From an uncultured Clostridia bacterium (GTDB lineage Bacteria; Bacillota; Clostridia; TANB77; CAG-508): DNA of 64,000 nucleotides. The translations under genes were made by a program, and so were the position numbers. Location of the stretch: positions 5,457-69,456 of the forward strand of contig CAJFHE010000007.1 of the NCBI GenBank assembly GCA_904378095.1. The letters are read 5' to 3'. Below are positions 2,631-64,000 of the stretch, piece after piece. Under the pieces are notes generated by a model. The model saw nothing but the letters and a program-made list of their open reading frames with translations, did no database searches and was not told the origin of the DNA. Each line of letters begins with the position of its first letter. Position 1 is the first letter of the stretch.

Positions 2631-2687
2631 GGGGACGGAGGAAAAAAGTTGTTTTTTTCCTCCGTCCCCAAAAACAAGATTTTCGAC
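2631..2687. repeat. composite F1 element: two inverted GGGGACGGAGGAAAAAA cores plus one flank, between convergent genes
   Basis: GGGGACGGAGGAAAAAA (2631-2647) pairs perfectly with TTTTTTCCTCCGTCCCC (2653-2669), followed by AAAAACAAGATTTT. Acts as a likely bidirectional terminator. Confidence 0.7.
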
Positions 2688-6063: not shown

Positions 6064-6242
6064 ATGTCAGAGGTTAAAGTTAATAATGGAAATATAGAAG
6101 ATGCCTTAAAAAGGTTTAAAAGACAATGCGCAAGAAATGGAGTATTGCAAGAAGTTAGAAAAAGAGAAAAAGAGAGCACTACGAAAAACCAAGCGTAAAG
6201 AGAAAGAAAAAATCAGAGGCAGCTAGAAAAAGAAAGTTTTAG
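6064..6242 (+). pseudogene. rpsU: 30S ribosomal protein S21 gene disrupted by an 8-bp tandem duplication
   Basis: MSEVKVNNGNIEDALKRFKRQCARNGVLQEVRKRE is followed by AGAAAAAG twice (6157-6164 and 6165-6172). The conserved tail HYEKPSVKRKKKSEAARKRKF* is then in another frame (6177-6242). Deleting one copy restores a 56-aa S21. Confidence 0.85.
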
Positions 6243-6427
6243 TAAATACATAAAGTAAAGAATTATTCTTTAAGAATAGTTCTTTATTTTTTCGTGCACA
6301 AAGCATTTTTTAAAATTTTTATTTGAGAGCTAGTATAATTAAAAATCAAAAAGTGTTGTATAATTTACACCAAATATTATATAATAATTTAGTAAAATGT
6401 AGATGATTGCGAAAGGAGAAAAAAGTT

Positions 6428-7702
6428 ATGAGTTATAATAAACAAGAAATAAAAAAAGGAGTTACAATTCATAATATTACTACAAATAAATTTAAAACAA
6501 ATTTATATGCTGTATTTTTAGCTCTTCCACTAGAAAGAGAAAATGTAACTAAAAATGCCTTAATAACAGCAATTTTAAGAAGAGGAACGCAAAACATACA
6601 ATCCCAAAACTTAATTAGTCAAAAATTAGAAGAAATGTATGGTGCAAGTTTTGATTGCGGAATAGAAAAAACAGGCGATAATCACGTAATGAAATTTTAT
6701 TTAGAGGCTATAAATGAGGAGTTCATTCCAGAAAAAGAAGAATTAACTAAAAAATGCATAGATATTTTATTTGATATCATATTCAACCCACTAGTAGAAA
6801 ACAATGGATTTAAGCGAGAGTATGTAGAATCTGAAAAAAATAATTTAAAACAGATAATAGAATCAAAAATAGACAATAAAAGAGTATATGCTTTTGAAAG
6901 ATGTATAGAAGAAATGTTTAAAGATGAGCCATATGGTTTATATAAATATGGTTATGTAGAAGATTTGGAAAAAATTACTCCTCAAAATTTATATGAGTAT
7001 TACAAAAAACTAATTAGTGAATGTAAGATAGACATATTTGTATCTGGAACTATTGATAATAAAAAAGTAAATGAGCTAATAGAAAACAACGAAGAAATAA
7101 GAGAATTAAAAGAAAGAGAAGCAAGATATGTTGTAAATACTGAAAAAACAAAACAAAGAGAGCAAAAAGAGACAAATACAGTAGAAGAGCATATGCAAGT
7201 AGGACAAGGAAACCTAGTTATGGGGTTAGATGTAAATTGCAAAAACGAAAATTGCAAATATATAGCATCTGTGTATAATGCAATATTGGGCGGTGGAGCA
7301 AATTCAAAACTATTCCAAAATGTTAGAGAAAAAGAAAGTTTAGCATATACTGCAGGCTCAACATTTAGAAGGCAAAAAAATGTAATTTTCATTAGATGTG
7401 GCATAGAAATAGCAAACTTTGATAAAGCTCTAGAAACAATAAAAATGCAACTAACAGACATACAAGAAGGCAGATTTTCAGATGAAGATTTAAATAACTC
7501 AAAAGAATTAATTATAGAGTCAATAAGAGGCATAAATTCTGAGCAGGATACAGAAATAACATATTATTATGGACAAGAATTATCAGATAGCTTCACAACA
7601 CTAGATGAATATATAGAAAAGATAAGCAATGTGTCAGTAGAAGACGTAAAAGAGTTGGCAGGAAGCATTGCTGTAGATACAGTCTATTTCCTAAGAGATT
7701 AA
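6428..7702 (+). CDS. M16 (pitrilysin) family protein, non-catalytic partner (no HxxEH)
   Basis: M16-like length and fold pattern with no HxxEH motif. Paired with the active M16 gene downstream (YmfF/YmfH-like arrangement). ATG 6428 follows GGAG. Confidence 0.7.
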   Translation: MSYNKQEIKKGVTIHNITTNKFKTNLYAVFLALPLERENVTKNALITAILRRGTQNIQSQNLISQKLEEMYGASFDCGIEKTGDNHVMKFYLEAINEEFIPEKEELTKKCIDILFDIIFNPLVENNGFKREYVESEKNNLKQIIESKIDNKRVYAFERCIEEMFKDEPYGLYKYGYVEDLEKITPQNLYEYYKKLISECKIDIFVSGTIDNKKVNELIENNEEIRELKEREARYVVNTEKTKQREQKETNTVEEHMQVGQGNLVMGLDVNCKNENCKYIASVYNAILGGGANSKLFQNVREKESLAYTAGSTFRRQKNVIFIRCGIEIANFDKALETIKMQLTDIQEGRFSDEDLNNSKELIIESIRGINSEQDTEITYYYGQELSDSFTTLDEYIEKISNVSVEDVKELAGSIAVDTVYFLRD

Positions 7703-7741
7703 AAATCTTGTTTTTTTCCTCCGTCCCCAAAAACAAGATTT
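7703..7741 (-). repeat. F1 palindromic element, exact consensus (reverse orientation)
   Basis: AAATCTTGTTTTTTTCCTCCGTCCCCAAAAACAAGATTT starts 1 nt after the M16 stop codon. Confidence 0.9.
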
Positions 7742-7775
7742 TTCAAAGAAAATATGAAGAAAGGATTGATAAAAA

Positions 7776-18168: not shown

Positions 18169-20976
18169 ATGAGTGAAGATAATAACAATAATAATCAAAA
18201 CAATTCTGTAAATGATAATGGCGAATTCGAAAAAATAGATAGAAATCGTTTAAGAGGTAATATAGGGGAAGAAGAAGAAAATGTAGCAAATAATGAGCAG
18301 CCTGAGGAGCAAGAGGTAGAAAACGAAACCAAGCAAGATGATAAGCTTAATGCTCAAGACATGCAGCAAATAGCAAAATCTGGAGCCAGCCTAGCAAAAA
18401 ACGCAGCAACTGGCAATGTGGTGGGCGCAGCAAAAGATGCTCTAAACCTTGCAAAAAACAAAAAGGTAAGAAACAAAATGATTAGGCATGCAATCATACA
18501 ATTTGCTGGACCCTTTCTCCTTATCTTATTCTTAGCAGCTGCAATATTCGGAATATTTGGAGCAGTAGCAGACACAGTAGGAGAAGTCCTGGAAGGTATA
18601 GGTCAAGCTATAGTAGACTTTTTTACAGTCGATGAATCTGATGGAGCAATAATAATATCTGATGAGCAGATAGATACTATTATAAATTCTATTGAGGAGC
18701 AAGGAATAAGTACAGAAGATTTAAAGCTACTTGGGGACTATGAAGAGAATGCATCTGAAGCAGAAAAGCAAAGAGCAGTTAGAAAATATATAAGAAAATT
18801 CTATGAAGCACAAGCATTAACAGAAACCCTAAATTATTATCACTATGATTCGACAAATGATACTACATTCGGAGCGATATATGTGTACAGAGCAAATGGA
18901 GATGTAAATGAAGACATTTCAAATAGAGAAGAAATAACATATATTTCGTATGATAAAATGCAAGAGATGATAGCTAATAACAACATAGAAGCAGCAAAAC
19001 ATTTTAGTATAGATGATTCGGAAAACCTAGTTGTTGCCTCATATAGTGAAACTATAGTACAAAATTCTAATGGGCAAGATAATAGTCATACATATACAGT
19101 AAGTTCAAGAACAATTAATTATAAATCTTTAGTATCACAATATACAACAAAGATGAACTTTTTAATAGATTTGACATTAATATCACAAAATCCTGAGTTT
19201 GTTTCGGCAGTAGTTGACTTGATTAAAGATAGTAGAATAGAAATAACAATAATGGATAATACAACGACAAATGTAAAAACAGTGACAAATAGTTATACTT
19301 TAAATGTACATGTTGAGGCAGACCGTGGAGCGACACCAGGAACATCGGGAAGTTACTATAATGTTGATGATTCATATGAAAGAACATCATCGACTACAAC
19401 TACAACAATAACAAGGACTCCATCTATTCAAATTAATTATGTAAAAACATGGTTTTGTGAGCAAAGAAAGAATTATACCAAAGATATAGATGGACCAAAT
19501 GAAATTTCTAATGTTACAACACATCCAGCAGATGAAGCACAGCCAGAAGGTGACGGAAGCTGGAAAACTAATCAAACAACCACAACAGTCGAAACTAGTA
19601 CAACAGAAAGCTACAAAGACGTAGGAAGTGGCGAAGGCTTAGTATTTACTTTAGGAGAGCAAGGCGATGGAGAAAGATATGAAAATGGAGAAATAGACGA
19701 GCCAACATTTGTAGGATTAATGGAAACAGAATATAGAATACCATATTCAACAAGGGAAGAAGCGGCAGGAACTAATTTAATAAGTGGCGCAGAAATGTTA
19801 TTCTACTTATTGCAAAAAGACCCAGACCTAGAGAATATGGAAATAATTATGAGGTATGCATTTAATCAATACCTAGGATATGAAAAGTATGAGGTTACTT
19901 TAGATGGAAGCATATTTGAGATAAAGGATTTTGTACCATTAAATTCTAGTGGCTCAAGTGATGATTTATTGTTAGAATATATTGGGTATTGGGAGTCAGG
20001 CCCAAATGGACCAAAGAAAAATGCAGATGGAACCAAATATATTATTATAGACGATGGTGTCGGCAACTTAGCAGTAGGCCATGGAGTAGATATTTATAAT
20101 AGTGGAATGGCGTACAAGTTTATCGAAGCAGGATATACTATAGCAGAAGGGGCAGAAGTAGATATAGAATTTGTTGATGCAATAAAATTAGAAATTCTGC
20201 AAAGAAACAAAAATGATGTGAATGCATTGGGATTAGACTTAACAGGATATCAGTTTAATGCTTTAGTATCATTTTGCTATAACTGCGGAAGCACAAGTGA
20301 TTTTAAAACAGCATATAATGCATACTGGAATCAAGAAAGAGACGACAAGTTTGAAGAAAAGGATCCAAATGCAGATTTAACACATCAATTATATACACAA
20401 TATTTTTCACAATACATACATGCAGGAGATCAGGTTTTGCAAGGATTGATAAGACGCAGAAGATCTGAATGGACATTATTTCAGACAGGATATTATGATG
20501 TGTTGAATAAATGGCACCCAGATAGCGGTGATTTAACTGGTGATAGTCAAATTGAAGATGGATATTTTGCATATCCATGTCCAGGACATACATGGAGTAC
20601 ATATTCTGGCCATGAGGGAATAGATATAAGTTGGCCTGGTTGTGAAGGTGAGCCAGTATATGCTGCACAAGCCGGAACAGTATCACTTGTACAAACAGGA
20701 CATGTAAATAATCAAGGAAGTAGCGGTATGGCATCTTATGGTAATTGCGTATTTATTCAGCATGAAAATGGTTGGGAGTCAAGATATGCGCATATGACAT
20801 CAGTAGTCGTATCACAAGGTGAGCATGTAGAGCAGGGGCAACTATTAGGATATATTGGAAATACCGGAAATTCTTATGGTGCCCACCTACATATTTCATT
20901 ATATGACCCATCAGGAAATGAAGGCAGTGGATCACGAAACTGGGCAGAAATTGCTTGGCCACAATATAGAGGATAA
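18169..20976 (+). CDS. bifunctional cell-wall hydrolase: GH24-type lysozyme plus M23 (LytM) endopeptidase, membrane anchored
   Basis: TM at aa about 105-130. Lysozyme-like YWES...GVGNLAVGHG...YQFNALVSFCYNCG. M23 motifs HEGIDIS (20611) and GNTGNSYGAHLHISL. Confidence 0.8.
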   Translation: MSEDNNNNNQNNSVNDNGEFEKIDRNRLRGNIGEEEENVANNEQPEEQEVENETKQDDKLNAQDMQQIAKSGASLAKNAATGNVVGAAKDALNLAKNKKVRNKMIRHAIIQFAGPFLLILFLAAAIFGIFGAVADTVGEVLEGIGQAIVDFFTVDESDGAIIISDEQIDTIINSIEEQGISTEDLKLLGDYEENASEAEKQRAVRKYIRKFYEAQALTETLNYYHYDSTNDTTFGAIYVYRANGDVNEDISNREEITYISYDKMQEMIANNNIEAAKHFSIDDSENLVVASYSETIVQNSNGQDNSHTYTVSSRTINYKSLVSQYTTKMNFLIDLTLISQNPEFVSAVVDLIKDSRIEITIMDNTTTNVKTVTNSYTLNVHVEADRGATPGTSGSYYNVDDSYERTSSTTTTTITRTPSIQINYVKTWFCEQRKNYTKDIDGPNEISNVTTHPADEAQPEGDGSWKTNQTTTTVETSTTESYKDVGSGEGLVFTLGEQGDGERYENGEIDEPTFVGLMETEYRIPYSTREEAAGTNLISGAEMLFYLLQKDPDLENMEIIMRYAFNQYLGYEKYEVTLDGSIFEIKDFVPLNSSGSSDDLLLEYIGYWESGPNGPKKNADGTKYIIIDDGVGNLAVGHGVDIYNSGMAYKFIEAGYTIAEGAEVDIEFVDAIKLEILQRNKNDVNALGLDLTGYQFNALVSFCYNCGSTSDFKTAYNAYWNQERDDKFEEKDPNADLTHQLYTQYFSQYIHAGDQVLQGLIRRRRSEWTLFQTGYYDVLNKWHPDSGDLTGDSQIEDGYFAYPCPGHTWSTYSGHEGIDISWPGCEGEPVYAAQAGTVSLVQTGHVNNQGSSGMASYGNCVFIQHENGWESRYAHMTSVVVSQGEHVEQGQLLGYIGNTGNSYGAHLHISLYDPSGNEGSGSRNWAEIAWPQYRG

Positions 20977-20986
20977 ACTAAAAGTC

Positions 20987-21030
20987 AGTGAAACACTGGT
21001 GATAGTTTTAAAACTGTCACCTTGTTTCAT
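20987..21030 (+). repeat. F2 nested-hairpin element
   Basis: AGTGAAACACTGGTGATAGTTTTAAAACTGTCACCTTGTTTCAT. Inner stem GGTGA(T)AG/CTGTCACC, outer stem TGAAACA/TGTTTCA. Lies 11 nt after the hydrolase stop. Confidence 0.7.
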
Positions 21031-21059
21031 TATATAAAATTATTATGTGAGGAGTAAGT

Positions 21060-22385
21060 ATGAAAATTAAGAAAATAATAATAATATTAATTGTAATTCT
21101 ATTAATTTTAGGGACAGTACTTGCAATATTATTAATAAGTAAAAAAAATACTGAGTATGGCTCTGTTAATGTCCAAGCAGATTTATCAGATATAATTAAC
21201 CAACAAATAACTGAAGTTACTGATATAAATAATTATTATATAGTTAAAAATTATATTAATAGATATTATTTGTACTTAACTAAAACTTCAAATGAAAATG
21301 TGATTACAGCTGAGCCGATTACAACAGAAGAGCAAGAAAGTATTAACAAACAGGCAGTATATAGTATGTTAGATACAACATATATTAATAGTACAAGTTT
21401 AACTGTAGATAATATTTTCAATAATATAGAGCAAATTGATGAATCAACAGTTATAATAGATAAAATGTATTTTGCCCCAATGACTACCAATATGTCAATA
21501 TATCTAGTATCTGGTAAAACAATCGCAGAAGCTACGTCAGAAGAAAAAGAATTCAAAATAATAGTAAAAATGGATATGGCAAATAAAACGCTAAGTTTAA
21601 TTTTAGGAGAAATGGCAGAAGAAATTTTCGATACTAACAGGCTAGGAGATACCTTAAATATTGACACAGAAACAACAATAGAGCCAAATGATTATAACCA
21701 ATATGAATATAACAACATATCCACTGATGAATATATTACAGACATGTTTAATGAATATAAGACATACCTAATTAGCTATAGAGAAGAAGCATATTCGAGA
21801 TTGGACAATGAGTATAGCAGTAAGAAGTTTGCAAATTTTGAAGAATTTAATGAATTTGTAGCACATAAAATAAAGAGCATTGTAATTGCAAAGGCAGATA
21901 AAGTTAGAACAACACAGTATGGAAATTATACACAGTACATAATTAATGACCAATATGGAAATTCATACATTTTTAGAGAAAATGCTGTAATGGACTTTGA
22001 TGTTATTTTAGATGTATATACAGTAGAAATACCTGAGTTAACAGAGCAATATAATAACTCTACAGATGCAGAAAAAGTGTTGATGAATATTCAAAAAGTA
22101 TTTTATGCTATAAATGATGGGGACTATAATTATGTATATAATAAATTAGACAATACATTTAAGCAAAATAATTTCCCTACACTAGAAAGCTTTGAGACAT
22201 ATATGAAAAGCAATTTCTATGAAAATAACAGTATAGGATATTCAAATTATAGAACTAGTGGTAATTTACATATTTATGATATTAGCATAACAGATGCAGA
22301 CAACGAGGAAAGTACTACGGTTACTAAAAATTTCATAATGCAACTATTAGATGGAACAGATTTTGTAATGTCATTTAATGTATAA
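21060..22385 (+). CDS. bitopic membrane protein with NTF2-like segments (second candidate VirB8/TcpC analogue)
   Basis: N-terminal TM. AEKVLMNIQKVFYAINDGDYNYVYNKLDNTFKQNNF is an NTF2-like signature. Confidence 0.3.
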   Translation: MKIKKIIIILIVILLILGTVLAILLISKKNTEYGSVNVQADLSDIINQQITEVTDINNYYIVKNYINRYYLYLTKTSNENVITAEPITTEEQESINKQAVYSMLDTTYINSTSLTVDNIFNNIEQIDESTVIIDKMYFAPMTTNMSIYLVSGKTIAEATSEEKEFKIIVKMDMANKTLSLILGEMAEEIFDTNRLGDTLNIDTETTIEPNDYNQYEYNNISTDEYITDMFNEYKTYLISYREEAYSRLDNEYSSKKFANFEEFNEFVAHKIKSIVIAKADKVRTTQYGNYTQYIINDQYGNSYIFRENAVMDFDVILDVYTVEIPELTEQYNNSTDAEKVLMNIQKVFYAINDGDYNYVYNKLDNTFKQNNFPTLESFETYMKSNFYENNSIGYSNYRTSGNLHIYDISITDADNEESTTVTKNFIMQLLDGTDFVMSFNV

Positions 22386-22402: not shown

Positions 22403-23728
22403 ATGAAGAATAATAAAAGAGAAGAAGTAATAAATAATATGCTTAAACTCAGAGAAAGTTTAAGTGAAGGTCTTAAGGAGAACAATCAAGAAATTGAAAA
22501 CATTGGATATTATAAAGACTTTAGATTTAAAGGCACACAATTTGGTGTTAATGATGCTTTTGTTGTAAAAATAAAAGATGATTCTGTACCACAAAAAGAA
22601 ATGGAGCCACGAGAAGCTGAAGAAAAGTATATTTATGAAATATACGATAAAGACAACAACTTGGTTGCAACAGTAGATATCGAAGGAAATGTTAGCTTTG
22701 CGCCTGAATATTTTGAAGGTATGGATGATGCATATTTAGAGGCTCTTGATTTGGAAAATGCGGAGTTTGAGTTGCCAGAAGAGTTAGAAAAAGATGATTT
22801 GGTTTTGACAAAAGGTGAACTAGATGAAATCCAAAACAGTAGAAGAATAGAAGATGTTTCTAAAAAAATCGGAAAAGAAGAAATCAGCTCATATTCTGAG
22901 ATGAAAACAGATCAAAAACCCCTATTTGACAAAATTACAAATAAGCAAGAAATAGACCCAAATACAAGAGTAACGCAAACCGAGACATTGGCTGACATGA
23001 TTCCAGAGCTAAAAGAAAAAGGAATAGTAAAAGTTGGTGTGGTATATTCAGACCATAGCAAAGGCCAAAGCGGTAGATTCTCATTTGTAGGAATTGATAA
23101 AGATGGAAATATACAGAAAATAGACAGTTTGCAGAATATAGAAGGTGCTACAACAGGACAAACAGTAACTTCTATAAATAGTACAGATGGAAGTGTTGTA
23201 GAGCAAGAGCAAGTTGCAGGCATGGTTAGAATTAATGAAAGAAGTAAAGCAAATGGAGAAGAGGAATATTTATCTGTAAAAGTAGGAAACTATGGAATAC
23301 TAGAAGTAGACTATGTAAGAGCAGATTTAAGTAAAGACAAAGACGAAAGATATTTGTCAGCTCCAATTGAAACTCAAAATATGAAACCTACTACAAGAGA
23401 AGTACGCGAGTTTATGGATAAATCAAAGAATACTGATATTTCAGAAGAAATAGAAAGAGCAAATCCAGAAATCGATAGAGATGATGATACACAAATGCAA
23501 AATATTGACGATACTGCAGGTAATGATGAAGTGACACCGGATGATATAATAGTTCTTGAAGATGGAACTAAAACCACATTAAGGCTAGAAGCGGCAAAAG
23601 ATAAAGTATCGCCAGAAGAATTTACAAGAAGGTATAATGAGAATGCAGGGAAAACGCCTGATGAAAAGATTGATAATCTACATGATGAAATAGAGGAAGA
23701 ATTTGGAGCGCCAAGTAGAAATAGATAA
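22403..23728 (+). CDS. acidic soluble protein, unknown function (last gene of the T4SS-like cluster)
   Basis: 441 aa with no TM or signal peptide, D/E-rich. RBS GAGG lies upstream. Confidence 0.5.
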   Translation: MKNNKREEVINNMLKLRESLSEGLKENNQEIENIGYYKDFRFKGTQFGVNDAFVVKIKDDSVPQKEMEPREAEEKYIYEIYDKDNNLVATVDIEGNVSFAPEYFEGMDDAYLEALDLENAEFELPEELEKDDLVLTKGELDEIQNSRRIEDVSKKIGKEEISSYSEMKTDQKPLFDKITNKQEIDPNTRVTQTETLADMIPELKEKGIVKVGVVYSDHSKGQSGRFSFVGIDKDGNIQKIDSLQNIEGATTGQTVTSINSTDGSVVEQEQVAGMVRINERSKANGEEEYLSVKVGNYGILEVDYVRADLSKDKDERYLSAPIETQNMKPTTREVREFMDKSKNTDISEEIERANPEIDRDDDTQMQNIDDTAGNDEVTPDDIIVLEDGTKTTLRLEAAKDKVSPEEFTRRYNENAGKTPDEKIDNLHDEIEEEFGAPSRNR

Positions 23729-23743
23729 TATAAAAAACACATA

Positions 23744-23783
23744 AAAAATCACCTTTAAAAATATAATTAAGAAGGTGATTTTT
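23744..23783 (+). terminator. 12-bp stem hairpin whose 3' arm contains the PBP gene RBS
   Basis: AAAAATCACCTT-N16-AAGGTGATTTTT, with ATG at 23786. Confidence 0.55.
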
Positions 23784-23785
23784 TA

Positions 23786-25204
23786 ATGAGAAATAAACTA
23801 AGTAAGAGAAAAATATATCAGGTTAATAAGTTGATTAATTTAAAAGAAGCGCTATATAAATGTTTAATATCTATAATTGTGCTTATAGCTATTTTAATTG
23901 CTTCCAGTGAAACACTGGTGACAGATTTTAATCTGTCACCTAGTTTTGCTAATGCTCAAGAAAATCTTGTTTTTGGGGACGGAGGAAAAAAACAAGATTT
24001 TATGGTACAAATAAATGAAGAAGATGAAGAAATAGACATTGAAGAGATACAAAAAGAAGTAATAGAAACAAGCTCAAATCCAGAAGAAGCTGATGTGGAC
24101 TCAAGGATAGCATTAATTTATGATAGAGCATCTGGGAAAATTTTATATGAAAAGAATGGAAACAAGCAAACTCCTATGGCAAGCACTACTAAAATAATGA
24201 CTGCTATAGTAGTTTTAGAAAATGCTAATTTAAAAGATGTAGTTACAATAGATTCAAAGGCGGCTGGAATTGGAGGCTCTAGATTAGGACTAAAAAAGAA
24301 TGATAAAATAACAGTAAACGATTTATTATATGGGCTAATGCTCCGCTCTGGAAATGATGCTGCAGTGGCATTAGCAAATTATGTTGGTGGAAGTGTAGAA
24401 AGTTTTGCACAGATGATGAATGAAAAAGCGAAAGAAATGGGACTTACAAATTCTCATTTTATAGTACCACATGGATTGGATAACGATGGGCATTATACAA
24501 CAGCGTATGAGCTTGCAAAAATGGCAGACTATGCATTAAAGATAGATAAATTTAAACAGATAGTAGGCACACAAAACACTACTATATATATTAATGGATA
24601 TGCAAAAGCAATAAATAATACAAATAAATTATTAGGAAGTGTGTCAGGGGTATATGGAGTAAAAACAGGATTTACAAATGGTGCGGGAAGATGTCTGGTA
24701 ACAGCATGTAAGAGAGATGATTTAGACATCGTAACAGTAATTATTGGAGCTGATACAACAAAGCAGAGAACAGCAGATACTATTAAACTAATAAACTATG
24801 CTTATAACAACTTTGAAGTGATAAATATTAAAGAAATTGTAGAAGAAAAATTTGAGCAATGGAAAGCAATAAACCAAAGTAGAATATATGTGAATAAAGG
24901 TATAAAAAATAACGTAGAGTTGCTTTTAGAAGATATGCCTTTTGAAAACATGGCAATTAAAAAGAATAATAAGGATAAAATAGATGTAGAAGTTAATTCG
25001 ATTTTTTATTTAGAAGCATCAGTAGCTAAAAATCAAGTAATTGCAAACATGAAAATAACTATAAATGGAGAGACACTTGAAATATTAGAAGTGTATTCAA
25101 AAGAAGAAATTAGAAAAAAAGAAATGCAAGATTATTTTATAGAGTTTTTGGAAGTGATAAATCTTGTTTTTGGGGACGGAGGAAAAAAACAAGATTTATT
25201 CTAA
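23786..25204 (+). CDS. D-alanyl-D-alanine carboxypeptidase (PBP5/DacF-type) carrying translated repeat elements
   Basis: SxxK (ASTTK), SxN (RSGND), KTG (KTGFT) motifs and an N-terminal TM anchor. Contains F2 and F1 copies in-frame near the N-terminus. A further F1 copy supplies the last 14 codons. Confidence 0.85.
   Translation: MRNKLSKRKIYQVNKLINLKEALYKCLISIIVLIAILIASSETLVTDFNLSPSFANAQENLVFGDGGKKQDFMVQINEEDEEIDIEEIQKEVIETSSNPEEADVDSRIALIYDRASGKILYEKNGNKQTPMASTTKIMTAIVVLENANLKDVVTIDSKAAGIGGSRLGLKKNDKITVNDLLYGLMLRSGNDAAVALANYVGGSVESFAQMMNEKAKEMGLTNSHFIVPHGLDNDGHYTTAYELAKMADYALKIDKFKQIVGTQNTTIYINGYAKAINNTNKLLGSVSGVYGVKTGFTNGAGRCLVTACKRDDLDIVTVIIGADTTKQRTADTIKLINYAYNNFEVINIKEIVEEKFEQWKAINQSRIYVNKGIKNNVELLLEDMPFENMAIKKNNKDKIDVEVNSIFYLEASVAKNQVIANMKITINGETLEILEVYSKEEIRKKEMQDYFIEFLEVINLVFGDGGKKQDLF
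23906..23948 (+). repeat. F2 element translated in-frame (SETLVTDFNLSPSF)
   Basis: AGTGAAACACTGGTGACAGATTTTAATCTGTCACCTAGTTTTG inside the PBP ORF. Confidence 0.75.
23962..24000 (+). repeat. F1 element, exact consensus, translated in-frame (NLVFGDGGKKQDF)
   Basis: AAATCTTGTTTTTGGGGACGGAGGAAAAAAACAAGATTT inside the PBP ORF. Confidence 0.9.
25159..25197 (+). repeat. F1 element, exact consensus, forming the C-terminus of the PBP ORF (NLVFGDGGKKQDLF*)
   Basis: Identical 39-mer. The stop codon (25202-25204) lies just beyond the element. Confidence 0.9.
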
Positions 25205-25294
25205 AAAATGGAGTGACAGTGACAACTTTAAATCTTTCACTCCTTATTTTTAACTATGAAAAATAAAAGAGAGTAAATAAAATTTTCTAGAGTA

Positions 25295-33166: not shown

Positions 33167-36100
33167 ATGAAGAAAAGAGTTGTAAAAGCGTTACTATTAT
33201 TAGTATTGGTAGTAATAATTATTATTGCTATTGTGAATACATACAAATGGATTGTTTGTGGAAATCAGTATATACAAATAAGTACTGCTGGTAAAGCATA
33301 TGCAAATAGCAATTTGTATGTTTCTGTTAATGCACAAGAAAATCGAGTAGACTTAGAAACAAAAACAAAATTAAAGCTTTTGGATTCAGATGGAAAAAGG
33401 GTAAAAAATGCTGAAGTTTCATATGATGGAAGTAATGCTGTAATAAGTATTCCAGACGTCGAAGCAGGAAATTATTTTATAGAAGCAAAAGTTTCTAGCG
33501 AAGCGGGCGTAGATACAGTTGAAAAGGAAATATATATTGCTGATGCTAACCAAGAGAATATTACAATAACATTTGATAAAGGAATATATAAATCTGGAGA
33601 TGAAGTGAATTTTAGAGCATTAATTACCAACAAAAACGATGACACACCTGTACAAAGAGAAGCCAATATTTGCATTTATGATGGAAATGATAATAAAGTA
33701 TATGATGAAACAGTAAATGCTTCCGAATATGGAATTACGAGCGGAACTTTTACATTGGCAGATGAGGTAAATAGTGGAATTTACAAGTTGGTTGTAAAAA
33801 CTAACATGGCAGAAACAACAAAACAGTTTAAGGTAAATCCATATGTAACTCCAAAATATGAGGTACAAATAGATTTTGACAAAGACAGCTATTTAGTTGG
33901 TGATACAGCCAAAATCAACCTTAATGCTGAATATTTTTTTGGTGAGCCTGTTTCAAATGCAAATTATACAGTGTATGTAAATAATACGAAGATTCAAGAT
34001 ATTGTAGCAGATGCAGATGGTAGAGCTAGTGTGGATTATAAGGTAGAAACAGCAGGAAAATATTCTGTAAAAGTAGAGGCAACAGATTCATCTAACTTTT
34101 TTGTTGAAGAAACAGGTAATTTCGCAGCAGGTACAGATATTTTTGAAGTAGAGCTACAGCCAGAGTACAACAACCTTATCTCAGGTAGACAAAATAATGT
34201 GTATGTATTTACTTCTGATGCTGAAGGAAACCCGGTAAAAACATATGTAACTATTTTCTCAAATGATTTTACAAAACAAATTGCAACTGATGAAAATGGT
34301 ATAGGAATGTTTACAATAGATATTGAAGCCACACAAAATAGTGGTAGGACTAATTATCAAGATTCTAAAATATTTACAATAGTTGCACAAAACATGGAAG
34401 GTGAGACTGTTCAAAAAAGTGCACGTTTATCAATTGAAACAAGTGATTTGCTAATTTCTACAAACAAAGTTAAATATAACCAAGGAGAAGATATTAATAT
34501 AAATCTTTCTTCTGTAGTTGAGAATACAAAAAATATCTATTTTTTTAAGAATGACAAATTAATTAAAATGCTTACTACAGATTCTTCTGATTCTACAGTT
34601 AATTTTGGAGATATATATGGCTTAATTGATATATATGTATCTGCAGATTCATCAGCAACAAGATATGATGAAGATAATTTATATAAAAGAACAATATTTA
34701 TTAAACCAGAAAAGAAATTAAATATATCTATTAATACTGACAAGCAAGAATATGCACCAGGTGATAATATATCAATCTCTTTTGCAACTACAGACGAAAA
34801 TAATAACAGTGTAGATAGTGCATTACTTGTAAGCATGCTAGATAATTCTGTATTGAATTTGGCAGATAATGATCTTTCTATTGATAATATAAAACTGGCT
34901 TTATCTGATATAGTATTTTCAGATGAGTTTGATGCAGCCACATTATACTCATGCATTATAGATGATGCATCAGAGCAAACATTAACGGGACTATTACTAA
35001 AGCAAAGTGACAGAGATGCAAACATATCAGAAACAGGCATATATAATGTTGAAGAAGAAGGAAACGCTGCTAAAATTGCGATAATTCTTTGGATTAGTAT
35101 AGCAATTATCATCATTATAGTTTTATGCGTTAAATTACCTAAATTTAGAGAGGCAATGCTACACTTTTTAAATTGTACAATATATGTAATAGTAGTTACA
35201 ATATTGGTGATGTCAGTGTTAGATGAGATAGCATGGAGTCTGCTGTATGATTTTGCAGCAGGAATTATGATTGCTGTACTCATAGTTACTGCAATAACAT
35301 ATGTGATTTGGGTTTCGAAATTAGACAAAAAGATTACTAGAACTTCAGTTTCATTATTAATAACGTCAATTATTTTTATGTTAGCAATATTCCTAATCGA
35401 AGAGTTTGATATAAATATTGTAATATTATTACTAATACTTGTGTTAATAGTCCTAATTCTAGTAATATTATCAAAAGTAAGTGAAACTAAAAATTTAAAA
35501 ATAAATAAATACATGAGAAAAATCGGAAAAGAAGTTATATATATTTGCAAATTTATAAGTGCATTAGCAATTTCACTGTTTGTAGGAATTATTATAGAGC
35601 GTATAATTGACATTTATTTAACAGGAATACCTATAGCAATAGTAGGAACATATTTCTTAAATTACTTATTTAACAAATTAGGAAAAGAAGAACAAACAGA
35701 TGACAGCCAACAATTTATGAATAAAAGAACTTACAGCTTTTATATATTGTGCGTATTAGCATGTATTGGAGCAGTTACAATCTGTTATTTTGTAATAAGC
35801 GAGTTAAGCAATAGCACTATGAGTAGTGTAGATATGTCGGGACCTTCAAGTTATGAAGGAGATATAGCTGACGGATTCTTTGGTACGACGGATACACAAT
35901 CAATTACAGGCTCTGGAGGCATATCTTCTATACTTGAAGGGGCACAAGATTTCTTATCAGGTAGAGATGAAAATACTATAACAGAAAGTACAGAAGAAGA
36001 AACAAGCACACCAACTGTAGAAACTGTTGTTGATGACAATATAAGAAATGTATTCTTAGAGAGTATGTGCTTTGTACCAGAATTGGTAACAAGTAATGGA

Positions 36101-38107: not shown

Positions 38108-38146
38108 ACATCTTGTTTTTGGGGACGGAGGAAAAAAACAAGATTT
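38108..38146 (+). repeat. F1 element
   Basis: ACATCTTGTTTTTGGGGACGGAGGAAAAAAACAAGATTT, 7 nt after the A2M stop. Confidence 0.9.
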
Positions 38147-38192
38147 TAATGGGGTAGATTTTAAATCTGCTCCATTTACTTTACTGAATTTT

Positions 38193-38236
38193 AGTGAAAC
38201 ACTGGGGCAGGTTTGAAACAGTCACCTGTGTCTCAT
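38193..38236 (+). repeat. F2 element, degenerate
   Basis: AGTGAAACACTGGGGCAGGTTTGAAACAGTCACCTGTGTCTCAT. Confidence 0.55.
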
Positions 38237-46500: not shown

Positions 46501-49029
46501 CAAAGAAAAGCATTAGAGGCAGATAAACTTAAATATTACAACGAATATGGGGGTTTCTCGAGCGATGGTACAGAATATCTAATACGTGTAAATAAAGATG
46601 AAAGATTGCCAACAGTATGGTCAAATATAATGGCAAATGATAATTTCGGTACAGTAGTAACAGAAGGTTTAGGCGGATATACTTGGTATAAAAATAGCAG
46701 ATTAAATAGAATAACAGCATGGAATAACAATCAAGTAACAGACGTACCTTCAGAAGTTATTTATTTAGAAGATATGGACAGCAAAAAAGTGTGGTCTGTT
46801 TCTGTAAGTCCTATGCCAGATAATAATGATTATTATATCACCTATGGCTTTGGATACAGCAAATATGGACACACAAGCAATGGGGTATTCCAGAATTTAA
46901 AAATATTTATACCACAAAATGAAAACTGCAAAGTGCAAATTTTACATTTAGAGAATAAAATGGCAAAAAAGAAAAATCTAAAAATAGTATATTATATTAA
47001 GCCAGTGTTGGATGAAGACGAAATTAAATCAAATGGATATATAGAATTAAAATGTAACAGTAGCACAAATGTAATCACACTGCAAAATCAGAGCAAAGAA
47101 ATTAAAGACAGAATGATTACCTATATCACTTGTAGTGAAAAAATAGCTTCATATACAGGTAGTAAAATGGCATTTATAGGAAGAGGAACAATAAAAAATC
47201 CAGAAGGAATTAAAAAATTAGAATTAGATAGAGCAAATACTTTAGGCAAAGATGAAGTACTTGCAGTAGAGTTTAAAATTAGTTTAGAAGCATTTGAAAA
47301 TAAAGATATAGTAATTACATTAGGAGCAGACGAAAACGCGTTAAACCTTCAAGACGTGGCATATAAATACGCAAATGTAAATAATGCAGTTAGTGAATAT
47401 GAAAACACAAAACGATATTGGAGAGAGCTACTTAGCAACATAAAAGTAGAAACACCAGTGGAATCCATGAATATAATGCTAAATGGCTGGCTCTTGTATC
47501 AAACACTTTGCTCTAGAATGCTAGCACGAAGCGGATATTATCAATCCGGTGGTGCATATGGCTTTAGAGACCAACTTCAAGATTGTATAGCATTAAAATA
47601 TATTTCACCAGAATTCTTAAAAAGGCAGATAATAAGGCATAGTAAACATCAATTTATAGAAGGAGATGTAGAGCATTGGTGGCATGAAGAAACCGGCAGA
47701 GGAATTCGTACCAGATTTTCGGATGACTTGCTTTGGCTCCCATACATGGTAGCAGAATATATTAACTTTACTGGAGACCATAGCATTTTAGATGAAGAAA
47801 CCAGCTATGTAAAAGGTGCCCCACTAGCAGAAGGCGAAGATGAAAGATACGACTTGTTTTTGGGGACGGAGGGAAAAAACAAGATTTACGTACATTGCAT
47901 AAAGGCAATTGAAAAATCACTAAATTTTGGCGAGAACGGCTTACCTAAAATAGGCTCTGGAGACTGGAATGACGGATTCAGCACAGTTGGAAATAAAGGA
48001 AAGGGAGAAAGTGTATGGCTAGGATTTTTCCAATACAAGGTGTTATCAGAATTTAGCAAAATTTGTGAGTATTATGGGGAGAAATTAGGAAGAGAAAAAC
48101 AAGCAGTAAATAATGATAATCTTAATAGTTCTAGTGAAATAAACCATGAGACAGAAACAAAAAGAGCTGAGAGATACAGAAAAATAATGGAAAATCTAAG
48201 GAAAGCACTAAATACAAATGCTTGGGATGGCAGATGGTATAAAAGAGCCTTCATGGATGATGGAAATGAATTAGGAAGCATACAAAATGAAGAATGCAGA
48301 ATTGACAGCATTGCACAAAGTTGGGCAACTATTTCTGGTGCAGGAGATAATGATAAAAAATATATTTCTATGGAATCTTTGGAAAAACATCTGATTGACA
48401 GAGAAGCAGGCATTATAAAATTGCTTGACCCACCATTTGAAAAAAGCAAGTTAGAGCCAGGATATATTAAGGCATATATACCAGGAACAAGAGAAAATGG
48501 AGGGCAGTACACCCACGGGGCAATTTGGGCAATTATTGCAGAAGCAATGCTTGGGTTTGGAGATAAGGCAACAGAATATTTTAGAATGATAAATCCAATT
48601 GAGCATTCAAGGACCAAGGAAGAAGCTAAAAAATATAAAGTAGAGCCATATGTAATAGCTGCAGATATTTATGGAGGAGAATTAGCAGGACGCGGAGGCT
48701 GGACATGGTACACAGGCTCTAGCAGTTGGATGTACGAAGCGGGAATACATTACATCTTAGGACTAAAAGTTGAAGGTAATGTATTAAAAATAGAGCCATG
48801 TATTCCAGTAAATTGGAATGAATATAGCATTAGATATAAATTTGGAAATAGCATATACAATATAAAAGTGGTTAATAAAAGTGGCAAAGTGAAAGAAGTA
48901 GATAGAGTTTTAATAGACGGAAAAGATACAAGCAAAGAAGAAATATATATAGGCAATCGAAAGCTAGAAAAGAATGAAATTTTGCTAAATAACAATGGGG
49001 GAATCTACTCGGTAGAGGCTCAAATTTGA
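40575..49029 (+). pseudogene. cyclic beta-1,2-glucan synthase-like giant protein (GT84-like transferase + TM region + GH94 phosphorylase) split by a 1-nt frameshift near 42547-42557
   Basis: ORF1 40575-42560 (LDADTE). ORF2's frame is open from 42547 and continues (K)PAGRSKFTKIYSGSAGTDSYTNAISDVYQDNFEEGIYTGKGIYD, SHDLLEG, RLSRWTRGDWQ, then GH94 motifs YGFRDQLQD, SGDWNDG, ENGGQYTHGAIW. Confidence 0.75.
47851..47887 (+). repeat. F1 element variant translated in-frame inside the GH94 domain (DLFLGTEGKNKIY)
   Basis: GACTTGTTTTTGGGGACGGAGGGAAAAAACAAGATTT, read in a different frame from the PBP copies. Confidence 0.8.
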
Positions 49030-52818: not shown

Positions 52819-52870
52819 ACAATCATTATAAACGTCGTATTACGTTGTCGACCTTCATTAAAAATATCCT

Positions 52871-52968
52871 CTGGCGTAACAAGAGTACGCCTCCGGTATT
52901 TTTAATTCGGTCTCCTAGTCTGGCGTAACAAGAGTACGCCTCCGGTATTTTTAATTCGGTCTCCTAGT
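52871..52968 (+). repeat. perfect 49-bp tandem duplication in the delta-alpha intergenic region
   Basis: CTGGCGTAACAAGAGTACGCCTCCGGTATTTTTAATTCGGTCTCCTAGT occurs twice. Each unit contains the GGCGTA-N7-TACGCC hairpin. Confidence 0.9.
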
Positions 52969-53025
52969 ACTACTCGTTTCTAATGATTGTTAGGAAAGAA
53001 AATTTATAAAGGGAGGAATAAATTA

Positions 53026-59170: not shown

Positions 59171-59208
59171 AAATCTTGTTTTTGGGGACGGAGGAAAAAA
59201 CAAGATTT
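59171..59208 (+). repeat. F1 element (A-run one nt shorter)
   Basis: AAATCTTGTTTTTGGGGACGGAGGAAAAAACAAGATTT. Confidence 0.9.
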
Positions 59209-59241
59209 TATAAAAAACTATACATAATTTAACGTAAAACA

Positions 59242-63515: not shown

Positions 63516-63594
63516 CTTATACTATATCTCAAACTAGTTTTAAAATATATTAAAAGATAAGCCTTAAATATAGAAGCTAATAGGAGTGAAGAAT

Positions 63595-63942
63595 ATGGTA
63601 ATAAAAAGAGGAGATATGTTTTATGCTGATTTAAGTCCTGTAGTTGGCTCTGAGCAAGGTGGAGTAAGGCCAGTTTTAATTATTCAAAACGATGTAGGAA
63701 ATAAACATAGTCCGACAGTCATAGCAGCAGCAATTACATCACAGACTGGAAAAAACAAATTACCAACACATATAGAAATAGGCTCACAAGAAAATGGATT
63801 AAAGGCTGATTCAGTAGTTTTGACTGAGCAAATTAGAACAATAGATAAAAGTAGACTAAAGGAAAAAATAGGACATATAGATGATGAAAATGTGATATCT
63901 CAAATAAATAATGCTTTAGGAGTAAGCTTTGGATTAGAATGA
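63595..63942 (+). CDS. mazF: MazF/EndoA (PemK family) endoribonuclease toxin
   Basis: [33 protein letters not shown]...LPTHIEI...[11 protein letters not shown] closely resembles B. subtilis EndoA. AGGAG RBS. Confidence 0.88.
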
Positions 63943-63972: not shown

Positions 63973-64000
63973 AATCTTGTTTTTTTCCTCCGTCCCCAAA
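63973..64000 (-). repeat. F1 element, truncated by the window end
   Basis: AATCTTGTTTTTTTCCTCCGTCCCCAAA. Confidence 0.85.

What the first reader, a model, noticed from the sequence alone, without database searches (positions are those of the whole stretch)
23906..24000. Two different repeat elements (F2 then F1) are translated in-frame in the linker of a PBP5-type carboxypeptidase
Within the dac ORF, the F2 hairpin element (23906-23948) and an exact F1 copy (23962-24000) lie between the N-terminal membrane anchor (CLISIIVLIAILIA) and the acidic linker and catalytic domain. They are read as SETLVTDFNLSPSF and NLVFGDGGKKQDF. The next in-frame ATG (24002) would give a protein with no export signal. 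The read-through ORF is therefore probably the functional one, and the elements are tolerated as linker peptide. Elsewhere the same F1+F2 pairing occurs in non-coding DNA after a stop codon (38108-38236). That suggests insertion of a pre-existing composite rather than coincidence. As RNA, these hairpins could also attenuate transcription or translation within the gene.
Basis: partly seen in the sequence, partly recalled or inferred. Interest (0 to 1): 0.65.

Follow-up and report, generated by a model that had tools for sequence, protein, structure and literature searches.

The report
Hairpin repeats translated inside carboxypeptidase gene
Two kinds of short, high-copy hairpin repeats that normally sit just after genes have landed inside a cell-wall enzyme gene of an uncultured chicken-gut Clostridium, where they are read as a floppy linker and tail, a bacterial case of selfish DNA becoming protein similar to one known from Rickettsia.

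Summary
F2 (23905-23950) and an exact F1 copy (23961-24001) lie in frame in the 472-aa Peptidase_S11/PBP5_C ORF (23786-25204), between the N-terminal hydrophobic helix and the acidic linker.

F1 is a 39-nt palindrome with 8 copies in the window and roughly 100 or more per genome. It has no stop codon in any frame. F2 is a terminator-like hairpin family supported by covariation.

Relatives at 62-91% identity keep the signal segment and the catalytic domain but lack these peptides. AlphaFold gives residues 43-101 and 464-472 pLDDT below 50. dN/dS for the catalytic core is 0.04-0.1. The repeats are best read as tolerated passenger peptides in a working gene, as with Rickettsia palindromic elements.

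The "pre-existing composite" idea is only partly supported, and attenuation is untested.

Three further points emerged:
- F1 also forms C-terminal tails or internal segments of at least six other proteins.
- The F1 copy in the GH94 gene is an equal-length replacement, not an insertion.
- The commoner allele of this dac gene in public assemblies carries a third repeat (F3) that splits the ORF.

The parts
23747..23785 (+). Conserved leader hairpin (AATCACCTT / AAGGTGATT, followed by a T run). Its 3' arm holds the Shine-Dalgarno sequence of dac. It probably also terminates the upstream gene.
   Evidence: It is conserved, with compensatory stem changes, in about 25 orthologous loci down to 62% protein identity. 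Sequence.
23786..25204 (+). dac ORF of 472 aa, a PBP5-type DD-carboxypeptidase.
   Evidence: Peptidase_S11 at 216.9 bits (residues 99-324) and PBP5_C at 26.5 bits (residues 367-443). Best solved relatives are 3mfd (B. subtilis DacB) and 1nzo (E. coli PBP5), matching from residue ~100 onward. The SxxK, SGN and KTG motifs are invariant.
23861..23905 (+). Hydrophobic core of the N-terminal signal or anchor segment (CLISIIVLIAILIAS).
   Evidence: Translation. AlphaFold models a helix at residues 2-44. A hydrophobic segment occupies the same place in all orthologs.
23905..23950 (+). F2 terminator-like hairpin repeat, read as (S)SETLVTDFNLSPSFA.
   Evidence: The family hairpin is supported by covariation: 9 of 13 pairs change on both sides and 0 of 500 shuffles reach the score. 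F2 is open in only this one of six frames.
23961..24001 (+). F1 palindromic repeat, linker copy, read as ENLVFGDGGKKQDF.
   Evidence: Exact match to other copies. Fold. Absent from relatives P0018 (91%) and P0021 (78%).
24002..24079 (+). Native acidic linker (MVQINEEDEEIDIEEIQKEVIETSSNPEEADVD).
   Evidence: It aligns with the linkers of relatives. pLDDT is below 50.
24080..25114 (+). Catalytic S11 domain and PBP5 C-terminal domain.
   Evidence: dN/dS is 0.04-0.1 against relatives.
25157..25199 (+). F1 repeat, C-terminal copy. It is in the same frame as the linker copy. It encodes the last 14 residues NLVFGDGGKKQDLF and runs into the stop codon at 25202-25204.
   Evidence: It is shared, in diverged form, with the 91% relative P0018 (NLIFGDEGKKQDCF). 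It is absent from P0020, P0021 and all more distant orthologs.
25210..25251 (+). F2-like hairpin (GGAGTGA...TCACTCC) followed by TTATTTTT. This is the likely terminator of dac.
   Evidence: Sequence, fold and comparison with L146.
20986..21031 (+). F2 copy 10 nt after the stop codon of the M23 peptidase/lysozyme ORF (18169-20976).
38109..38230 (+). F1 (38109-38145), a hairpin (38152-38176) and a diverged F2 (38192-38230), lying after the stop codon of the alpha-2-macroglobulin-like ORF (33167-38101).
47851..47889 (+). F1 copy inside the GH94 ORF (42628-49029). It is read in another frame, as DLFLGTEGKNKIY. It replaces a native segment of equal length.
   Evidence: Protein alignment. Codon-level comparison.
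2631..2684 (-). F1 copy with an extra inverted half-copy (GGGGACGGAGG...CCTCCGTCCCC), lying between convergent genes.
   Evidence: The same nested form occurs in L156, L181 and L187.
7702..7742 (-). Intergenic F1 copy, directly after the stop codon of the M16 peptidase ORF (6407-7702).
59171..59213 (+). Intergenic F1 copy.
63973..64000 (-). F1 copy, cut by the window end, lying after the MazF-like ORF (63586-63942).

Best explanation
F1 (about 39 nt) and F2 (about 46 nt) are two families of short, dispersed, hairpin-forming repeats in a lineage of uncultured chicken-gut Clostridia. Their usual home is the first few tens of bases after a stop codon. There F2 looks like, and probably serves as, an intrinsic terminator.

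In this dac gene they have entered two permissive places:
- the unstructured linker between the export or anchor segment and the catalytic domain (F2, 10 nt of spacer, then F1, about 26 extra codons compared with the nearest allele that lacks the linker copy of F1);
- the extreme 3' end, where F1 replaces the last few codons and the stop.

They are translated simply because they carry no stop codon in the frame hit. F1 has none in any of the six frames, and F2 has one open frame. Selection has kept only frame-preserving arrangements. The resulting peptides are passengers: a disordered linker and a tail on a working, exported PBP5-type DD-carboxypeptidase.

Shown: the anatomy, the repeat families, absence of the peptides in relatives, purifying selection on the enzyme, and predicted disorder.

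Inferred: that the protein is made and exported as one chain, that the insert is neutral, and how the repeats spread. The mechanism of spread is unknown; the GH94 copy shows that at least some copies arise by templated replacement rather than insertion.
For: - The repeats are real and far above chance.
- F1 word depth is roughly 50-140 times the flanking depth in metagenome contigs, and contigs break at F1.
- The metagenome scan returned 50 stretches. With the window, about 60 distinct copies were classified. Most are intergenic.
- In coding sequence, F1 forms the C-terminal tail of DUF4364, RecD2, NRPS, SpoVAD, an unnamed 219-aa ORF (L155) and Dac proteins. It lies inside AddA-like helicase, GH94 and Dac ORFs. 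In every case it is in the sense orientation.
- F1 is stop-free in all frames, and F2 only in the frame used.
- Orthologs and close relatives lack the peptides but share the start, signal segment, acidic linker and catalytic domain.
- Omega is 0.04-0.1.
- pLDDT is below 50 for residues 43-101 and 464-472, and matches to solved PBP5/DacB structures begin at about residue 100.
- The identical 472-aa product occurs on 23 contigs, and 13 further 99-100% variants keep the insert in frame.
Against: - There is no protein or transcript evidence. The RNA contigs are too sparse to use.
- In public assemblies the commoner allele of the same species (98-99% identical) has the ORF broken just after the linker F1 by a third repeat. 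About 81 contigs carry the 102-aa N-terminal ORF, against about 45 with the intact 472-aa form. The gene may therefore be dispensable, and "functional" rests on the selection signal alone.
- F1 copies are nearly invariant, even between lineages with dS about 0.5. That points to constraint or homogenisation, not pure passenger drift.
- No target-site duplication or transposase was found.
Confidence: 0.78

Rival explanations
1. The intragenic F2 and F1 hairpins are kept because they regulate dac. F2 would act as a partial intrinsic terminator or ribosome pause inside the ORF, and so set enzyme level. This does not exclude the passenger-peptide reading.
For: F2 at 23917-23940 scores as terminator-like: a 10-bp stem with 5 G-C pairs and the tail TAGTTTTGCT. 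This is the same as the copy that follows the stop codon of the upstream M23 peptidase gene. The combined F2+F1 RNA fold is -36.7 kcal/mol, z = -5.4. F1 in the linker is identical in lineages with dS about 0.5. From general knowledge: in Bacillus subtilis, RNA polymerase outruns the ribosome, so intragenic terminators can act.
Against: Relatives manage without these elements. The U tract is short and interrupted. There are no 3'-end data. The invariance of F1 is equally explained by gene conversion among 100 or more copies.
Confidence: 0.15
2. The upstream part is not translated together with the enzyme. Translation would start at ATG 24002, with the GGAGG of F1 acting as a Shine-Dalgarno sequence. 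Alternatively the gene is a pseudogene.
For: F1 carries GGAGG, and an ATG follows it. The commoner allele of the species does separate the two halves.
Against: GGAGG lies 16 nt from the ATG, which is too far. The ATG is absent in the split alleles and in relatives. The product would lack any export signal, although every relative has one. The frame is open across 96 nt of AT-rich repeat DNA, in which F2 has stop codons in 5 of 6 frames. The start codon and leader hairpin are conserved across the family. Omega is 0.04-0.1.
Confidence: 0.05
3. The repeat cluster in the dac linker is a switch or recoding site. Alleles with F3 (the majority) would need a +1 ribosomal frameshift or a bypass to make full-length Dac, and the window allele would be a fixed-on variant.
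For: - Two lineages, 98-99% and 93% identical to the window, share the same architecture: ORF1 in frame 0, and ORF2 in frame +1 with neither a usable Shine-Dalgarno sequence nor a signal peptide.
- Indels on both sides of the break are multiples of 3.
- Omega between the two split lineages is 0.05 at dS 0.48.
- The substitution pattern inside F3 changes from frame-0-like to frame+1-like at a conserved AAT-CGG. CGG accounts for 2 of 16,321 codons in the window's long ORFs.
- The split allele is the commoner one.
Against: The numbers are tiny: 8 codon differences. No canonical slippery site exists. The F3 block could have moved between lineages by recombination, which would make the split recent in each; window versus L145 has dS of only 0.034. 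Low-molecular-weight PBPs are often dispensable, so a common loss-of-function allele is the default reading. None of this is in the window itself.
Confidence: 0.12
4. The arrangement is an assembly artefact, produced by collapsing or joining contigs at a high-copy repeat.
For: Short-read unitigs do break at F1.
Against: F1 (39 nt) and F2 (46 nt) are shorter than a read. The identical protein is called on 23 contigs of up to 253 kb, and 13 near-identical variants come from independent assemblies. The flanks are collinear with relatives.
Confidence: 0.02

Closest known systems
Rickettsia palindromic elements (RPE; Ogata et al. 2000, as summarised in PMC10969869)
   Same: Both are dispersed palindromic repeats that insert into unrelated protein-coding genes without breaking the frame. 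Both are translated as extra peptide, in places compatible with the fold.
   Different: RPEs are about 100-150 bp and add 30-50 residues, and they occur in obligate intracellular alpha-proteobacteria. F1 is 39 nt (13 residues) and F2 is 46 nt. Here the host is a gut Clostridium. Most F1 copies are intergenic, and many coding copies are C-terminal tails rather than internal inserts. One copy (GH94) replaces native codons one for one. No sequence relationship to RPEs was tested.
REP/BIME elements of Gram-negative bacteria and small repeats in general (PMC3184786)
   Same: Both are palindromes of about 35-40 nt, with a hundred or more copies, mostly just downstream of genes. Copies often cluster or nest and are very homogeneous.
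   Different: The conserved part of F1 is the 11-nt loop GGGGACGGAGG plus the inner stem, and the stem is A/T-rich rather than G/C-rich. There is no 5' GTAG motif. No RAYT gene was examined. REPs are by definition extragenic.
Pneumococcal SPRITE, BOX and RUP repeats (PMC3049150)
   Same: SPRITE is a mobile terminator-like hairpin of a Firmicute. F2 likewise combines a hairpin and a T tract and sits right after stop codons. Large BOX elements and intragenic ERIC elements are also known to carry or extend ORFs (PMC10969869).
   Different: These are different sequences in different hosts. Two families translated side by side in a linker, with one of them also forming the C-terminus of the same protein, does not appear in the papers consulted here.
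Recoding that rescues indels: +1 frameshifting at hungry codons, and T4 gene 60 or mitochondrial 'byp' bypassing (PMC5009743; bioRxiv 10.1101/2022.08.31.505936)
   Same: This applies only to the F3-bearing alleles outside the window. A short mobile hairpin element interrupts an ORF. The downstream frame stays intact, and an extremely rare codon lies at the likely shift point.
   Different: No known slippery motif, no stop codon at a take-off site, and no experimental evidence. This is a lead, not a classification.

Membership tests
PBP5-type DD-carboxypeptidase (MEROPS S11), host gene | Peptidase_S11 domain above the curated cut-off | tested here: met
   216.9 bits against a cut-off of 27.6, residues 99-324. 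PDB 3mfd DacB at E = 2.7e-52 and 1nzo PBP5 at 1.1e-35.
PBP5-type DD-carboxypeptidase (MEROPS S11), host gene | PBP5 C-terminal beta domain | tested here: met
   PF07943 at 26.5 bits against a cut-off of 21.2, residues 367-443.
PBP5-type DD-carboxypeptidase (MEROPS S11), host gene | Active-site motifs SxxK, SxN and KTG | tested here: met
   S133-T-T-K136, S188-G-N190 and K293-T-G295 are invariant in 24 aligned relatives.
PBP5-type DD-carboxypeptidase (MEROPS S11), host gene | N-terminal export signal | tested here: met
   Basic N-region plus the hydrophobic segment CLISIIVLIAILIA, modelled as a helix at residues 2-44. Whether it is cleaved (possibly at ASS|E) could not be tested.
In-frame palindromic repeats of the RPE kind (works-like) | A repeat family member lies inside an ORF without a frame shift or stop codon, and is absent from orthologs | tested here: met
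   for dac. for other genes.
In-frame palindromic repeats of the RPE kind (works-like) | The insert lies where the fold tolerates it (surface or linker) | tested here: met
   pLDDT is below 50 for residues 43-101 and 464-472. The AddA-like copy lies between domains, and the tails follow the last Pfam domain.
Rickettsia palindromic elements proper (membership) | About 100-150 bp, belonging to one of the RPE sequence families of Rickettsia | tested here: not met
   F1 is 39 nt and F2 is 46 nt, and the host is a Clostridia MAG lineage. No sequence comparison with RPEs was run.
REP elements | Short imperfect palindrome, high copy number, mainly extragenic near gene 3' ends | tested here: met
   8 copies in 64 kb. 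Depth ratio is roughly 50-140 times. Most of about 60 copies are intergenic.
REP elements | Conserved 5' GTAG-type tetranucleotide and an associated RAYT (Y1 transposase) gene | tested here: inconclusive
   There is no GTAG next to the F1 stem in the aligned copies. No search for a RAYT gene was made, and the whole genome is not available here.
MITE | Terminal inverted repeats | tested here: met
   13-nt arms, AAATCTTGTTTTT and AAAAACAAGATTT.
MITE | Target-site duplication flanking each copy | tested here: inconclusive
   There is no consistent direct repeat in the flanks of 9 copies. No clean pair of empty and filled sites was obtained, because contigs break at the repeat. The GH94 copy is a replacement with no added length.
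MITE | A parent IS element with matching ends | not tested
   -
Terminator-like mobile hairpins (SPRITE-like), for F2 | Stem-loop followed by a T tract, placed directly after stop codons, in many copies | tested here: met
   About 22 copies were aligned. 84% of cells are paired, 9 of 13 pairs have changes on both sides, and 0 of 500 shuffles reach this.
Terminator-like mobile hairpins (SPRITE-like), for F2 | Termination activity or mobility demonstrated | not testable with these tools
   This needs Term-seq and strain comparisons.

The most novel reading that the evidence does not exclude
The dac linker of this species is a hot spot where three families of hairpin repeats pile up. The majority allele (F2+F1+F3, ORF split with a +1 offset) would still make full-length enzyme, through a +1 ribosomal frameshift at a near-unassigned CGG codon inside the repeat. 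That would be a mobile element carrying its own 'savior' recoding site. The window allele would be the frameshift-free variant. Separately, F1 may spread by templated patch replacement rather than transposition, as the one-for-one replacement in GH94 suggests.
Probability: 0.12. Interest if true: 0.8.

Novelty: new member of a known kind. Interest (0 to 1): 0.45.

Why it matters
In-frame capture of selfish palindromic repeats by proteins is best documented in Rickettsia. This locus extends it to free-living gut Firmicutes. It involves a much smaller element that is stop-free in all six frames and repeatedly rewrites C-termini and linkers of unrelated proteins: cell-wall, DNA-repair, sporulation and NRPS enzymes.

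There is a practical consequence. Gene callers and homology pipelines will see odd shared peptides (NLVFGDGGKKQD, LFLGTEEKNKI) in unrelated proteins, and assemblies will break at these sites.

The natural allele series at one locus is a ready-made system. It contains an allele without the linker copy of F1, F2+F1 in frame, F2+F1+F3 out of frame, and alleles with or without the C-terminal copy. It could be used to ask three questions:
- what such inserts cost;
- whether intragenic terminator-like hairpins attenuate transcription in Clostridia;
- whether a broken allele is rescued by recoding.

Tried and rejected
- An Rfam scan of the window at gathering threshold found only two tRNAs, so neither F1 nor F2 is a described RNA family.
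- A full-text search for the F1 loop sequence returned only unrelated eukaryotic primers.
- An exact-pattern scan of GTDB representative genomes for F1 gave mostly chance hits in Microcoleus, plus a few true copies in related Clostridia, Bacilli and Acholeplasma-like MAGs. The window's own species is not represented there.
- The F3 pattern is absent from the window and from the GTDB representatives.
- RNA runs are contig-level only, at depth 2-3, and cannot show or exclude premature termination.
- Laying DNA contigs on the window to find empty F1 sites failed, because unitigs end at the repeat.
- I first read the 49-nt direct repeat in the split alleles as take-off and landing sites for a gene-60-like bypass. 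It turned out to be the internal symmetry of the F3 palindrome family, so that reading was downgraded.
- Transcriptional slippage at the A7 run of F1 cannot rescue the split alleles, because the +1 frame has a TAG just after the run.
- The idea that GGAGG in F1 drives initiation at ATG 24002 was rejected on spacing (16 nt) and lack of conservation.
- An exact look-up of the truncated S21 product found nothing.
Full report
**What is there.** The ORF 23786-25204 (+) encodes 472 residues. It contains a Peptidase_S11 domain (residues 99-324, 216.9 bits) and a PBP5 C-terminal domain (residues 367-443). Its closest solved relatives are B. subtilis DacB (3mfd) and E. coli PBP5 (1nzo), and all solved-structure matches begin near residue 100. 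The SxxK, SGN and KTG motifs are invariant among 24 relatives. Upstream of the catalytic domain the protein reads MRNKLSKRKIYQVNKLINLKEALYK-CLISIIVLIAILIA-SSETLVTDFNLSPSFANAQENLVFGDGGKKQDF-MVQINEEDEEIDIEEIQKEVIETSS. The stretch SETLVTDFNLSPSF is coded by F2 (23905-23950). The stretch NLVFGDGGKKQDF is coded by an exact F1 copy (23961-24001).

**The repeats are real.** F1 (AATCTTGTTTTTGGGGACGGAGGAAAAAAACAAGATT) has 8 copies in the 64-kb window, where shuffles give none. It is a 13-14 bp A/T-rich stem around a loop GGGGACGGAGG(AA), with a fold of -12.4 kcal/mol and z = -4.8. F2 has three copies in the window. It folds into an extended hairpin at -22.4 kcal/mol, z = -6.2. The consensus scan calls both the dac copy and the copy 10 nt after the stop of the upstream M23 peptidase gene terminator-like.

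About 22 F2-like copies were gathered from related contigs. In them the stem is kept by compensatory changes: GGTGACAG/CTGTCACC, GGTAACAG/CTGTTACC, GGGGACAG/CTGTCCCC and GGGAGCAG/CTGCTCCC. 84% of cells are paired, 9 of 13 pairs change on both sides, and no shuffle out of 500 reaches this.

In metagenome contigs that hold this locus, the word depth at F1 is roughly 50-140 times that of the flanks, and contigs end at F1. The copy number is therefore of the order of 100 or more per genome. The organism is an uncultured Clostridium-like bacterium (about 30% G+C) found in chicken-gut and poultry-dust metagenomes.

A second F1 copy (25157-25199), in the same reading frame, supplies the last 14 residues (...EVI-NLVFGDGGKKQDLF) and runs into the stop codon. 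It is followed by an F2-like hairpin and a T tract, which is the probable terminator. One gene therefore carries three repeat-derived coding segments.

**Comparison with relatives.** Eighty related loci were fetched. The 23 closest (62-80% identity) all begin at the same conserved leader and ATG. Each has a short basic stretch, a hydrophobic segment, a linker of very variable length, and then the acidic EE(D/E)..(D/E)(I/V)..(I/L)(Q/E)KE(V/I)(I/L)E(T/A)S motif and the catalytic domain. None has the F2 or F1 peptides, and none has the F1 tail.

Closer proteins give an allele series:
- P0021 (78%) has the same MRNKL... start and an F2-like remnant (SEVTVAGLN), but no F1 and no F1 tail.
- P0018 (91%) has no linker repeats but has a diverged F1 tail (NLIFGDEGKKQDCF).
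- P0020 (93%) has two F2 copies plus F1 plus a third repeat in the linker, and no F1 tail.
- Fourteen variants at 99-100% identity keep exactly the window's arrangement.

The tail copy and the linker copies were therefore acquired separately, and the linker has been hit repeatedly.

**Is the gene alive?** For the 340-codon catalytic core, dN/dS is 0.04-0.1 in all comparisons, for example 0.041 against the intact 91% relative at dS 0.49. F2 has stop codons in five of its six frames and sits in the only open one, while F1 has none in any frame. A random 96-nt A/T-rich insert would rarely stay open, so selection for an intact frame is the simplest reading.

AlphaFold2, run with a 24-sequence alignment, gives an N-terminal helix (residues 2-44). 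pLDDT is below 50 for residues 43-101 and for 464-472, and the S11 core is modelled with confidence. The repeat-coded residues therefore lie in a predicted disordered linker and tail.

The ATG at 24002 is 16 nt from the GGAGG of F1 and is not conserved in other alleles. It would also yield an enzyme with no export signal. It is an unlikely start.

**F1 in other genes.** A metagenome scan with the F1 core returned 50 stretches. With the window, about 60 distinct copies were classified. Most are intergenic, often immediately after a stop codon and often beside an F2-like hairpin, in either order and orientation.

F1 also forms the C-terminal tail of several proteins:
- a DUF4364 protein;
- a RecD2 helicase;
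- a non-ribosomal peptide synthetase;
- SpoVAD, where the Pfam domain ends at residue 342 and F1 starts at 343;
- an unnamed 219-aa ORF.

F1 also lies between the helicase and nuclease domains of an AddA-like protein. Two frames are used, giving LVFGDGGKKQD or LFLGTEEKNKI, and always with GGGGACGGAGG on the sense strand.

**The GH94 copy.** In the window, the copy at 47851-47889 lies in the catalytic domain of a 2133-aa GH94 protein. There it adds no length. Homologs read YDLYLKTEEKETIY where the window reads YDLFLGTEGKNKIY, and the native DNA of the L204 homolog matches F1 at 25 of 39 positions. That copy is a one-for-one replacement of a somewhat similar native segment. This points to templated conversion rather than insertion, at least at that site.

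**The composite idea.** The association of F1 with F2-like hairpins is real. Examples are the dac linker (F2 then F1), the dac 3' end and 38.1 kb (F1 then F2), and L114, L162/L177, L169, L171, L190 and L104/L187. Order, spacing and orientation differ among them, and the allele series shows F2 without F1. I therefore favour successive hits into a permissive hot spot, or F1 settling next to terminator hairpins, over a fixed composite.

**Comparison with known systems.** In function this is the RPE phenomenon: selfish palindromes fused in frame into proteins (PMC10969869). It is combined with REP-like size, copy number and location (PMC3184786), and with a SPRITE-like terminator hairpin family (PMC3049150). 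It is not a member of the RPE families, given the size and the host, and it lacks the REP GTAG motif. No target duplication or transposase was found. Neither Rfam nor a full-text search for the loop sequence knows F1.

**Outside the window.** In strains 98-99% identical (L145, L149, L150, L198) and 93% identical (L151, L152), a third palindromic repeat, F3, follows the linker F1 directly. Its family consensus is CTTGTCCAAAAGGGACACTCC...GGAGTGTCCCTTTTGGACAAG, and other copies occur in L172, L109, L114, L191, L176 and L200. In those strains the gene is split in two. A 102- or 127-aa ORF carries the anchor, F2 and F1. A 399- or 407-aa ORF lies in the +1 frame, beginning at a GTG with no usable Shine-Dalgarno sequence and no signal peptide.

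This split allele is the commoner one in public assemblies, with about 81 contigs against about 45 for the intact form. The default reading is a frequent loss-of-function allele of a dispensable low-molecular-weight PBP.

Some features keep a recoding hypothesis alive at low probability:
- The two split lineages keep both ORFs open.
- All indels are multiples of three.
- Omega between them is 0.05 at dS 0.48.
- Inside F3 the substitution pattern changes from frame-0-like to frame+1-like at a conserved AAT-CGG.
- CGG is used 2 times in 16,321 codons.

Recombination of the F3 block between lineages would explain most of this without recoding.

**Verdict.** The main interpretation, that the repeats are translated and tolerated as linker, is well supported by comparative evidence but not by expression data. 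The composite claim is weakened, and attenuation remains open. This is a new, small and unusually coding-compatible example of a known kind of event. It comes with a useful natural allele series and two leads worth following: replacement-type spread of F1, and the split majority allele.

Noticed in passing
L145:2945-3022; L151:2945-3031; also L149, L150, L152, L198 (not in the window): The majority allele of this dac gene carries a third palindromic repeat (F3) right after the linker F1. F3 splits the ORF into an anchor ORF (102 or 127 aa) and a catalytic ORF in the +1 frame (399 or 407 aa). Both ORFs stay intact in two lineages, with omega 0.05 at dS 0.48. A conserved AAT-CGG sits mid-element, and CGG is 2 of 16,321 codons. 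The allele is either loss-of-function or a candidate for a +1 frameshift.
   Followed up: partly
window 47851-47889 (GH94 ORF 42628-49029): This F1 copy adds no residues. It replaces 13 native codons one for one: YDLYLKTEEKETIY in homologs becomes YDLFLGTEGKNKIY. The native DNA of the L204 homolog matches F1 at 25 of 39 positions. This suggests spread by templated conversion rather than insertion.
   Followed up: partly
L154, L155, L185, L192, L195, L172 (metagenome contigs): F1 supplies the C-terminal tail of DUF4364, RecD2, NRPS and SpoVAD proteins and of an unnamed 219-aa ORF (L155). It also lies between the domains of an AddA-like helicase-nuclease. Unrelated proteins therefore share the peptides LVFGDGGKKQD or LFLGTEEKNKI.
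   Followed up: partly
window 23747-23785 and the same place in about 25 orthologous loci: A leader just upstream of dac is strikingly conserved: CATAAAAAATCACYTT-AAAATATAAT-NARAAGGTGATTTTTT-ATG. It forms a hairpin with compensatory stem changes. Its 3' arm is the Shine-Dalgarno sequence and its loop holds TATAAT. It is far more conserved than the neighbouring coding sequence. It may sequester the Shine-Dalgarno sequence, or serve as both terminator and promoter.
   Followed up: partly
window 6064-6243: The ribosomal protein S21 gene (rpsU) looks frameshifted by an 8-nt tandem duplication (AGAAAAAG AGAAAAAG). Frame A ends after 44 aa, and the canonical C-terminus [22 protein letters not shown] continues in the -1 frame. 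Contigs of other taxa lack the duplication, and the truncated product is not on record elsewhere. It could be an assembly error, a strain variant or a recoding site.
   Followed up: partly
window 2631-2684; also L156, L181, L187: A nested F1 form in which the loop GGGGACGGAGG pairs with an adjacent inverted CCTCCGTCCCC, giving an 11-bp G/C-rich stem between convergent genes.
   Followed up: no
window 52870-52967: A perfect tandem duplication of a 49-nt unit (TCTGGCGTAACAAGAGTACGCCTCCGGTATTTTTAATTCGGTCTCCTAG) lies in the intergenic space before ORF 52987-54210.
   Followed up: no
L097, L125, L131, L141, L104, L137: F1-like hairpins in other Clostridia, Bacilli and Acholeplasma-like MAGs keep the loop and inner stem but change the outer stem in a compensatory way. 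Some changes involve G-U pairs. The loop therefore seems to be the recognised part.
   Followed up: no
window 21060-22385 and 22403-23728: Two adjacent paralogous 441-aa ORFs without Pfam hits lie just upstream of dac, after an M23 peptidase/lysozyme ORF. A 1443-aa repetitive surface protein (CLIPPER domains) lies downstream. The order 441-aa pair, dac, surface protein recurs in L145, L149 and L151.
   Followed up: no
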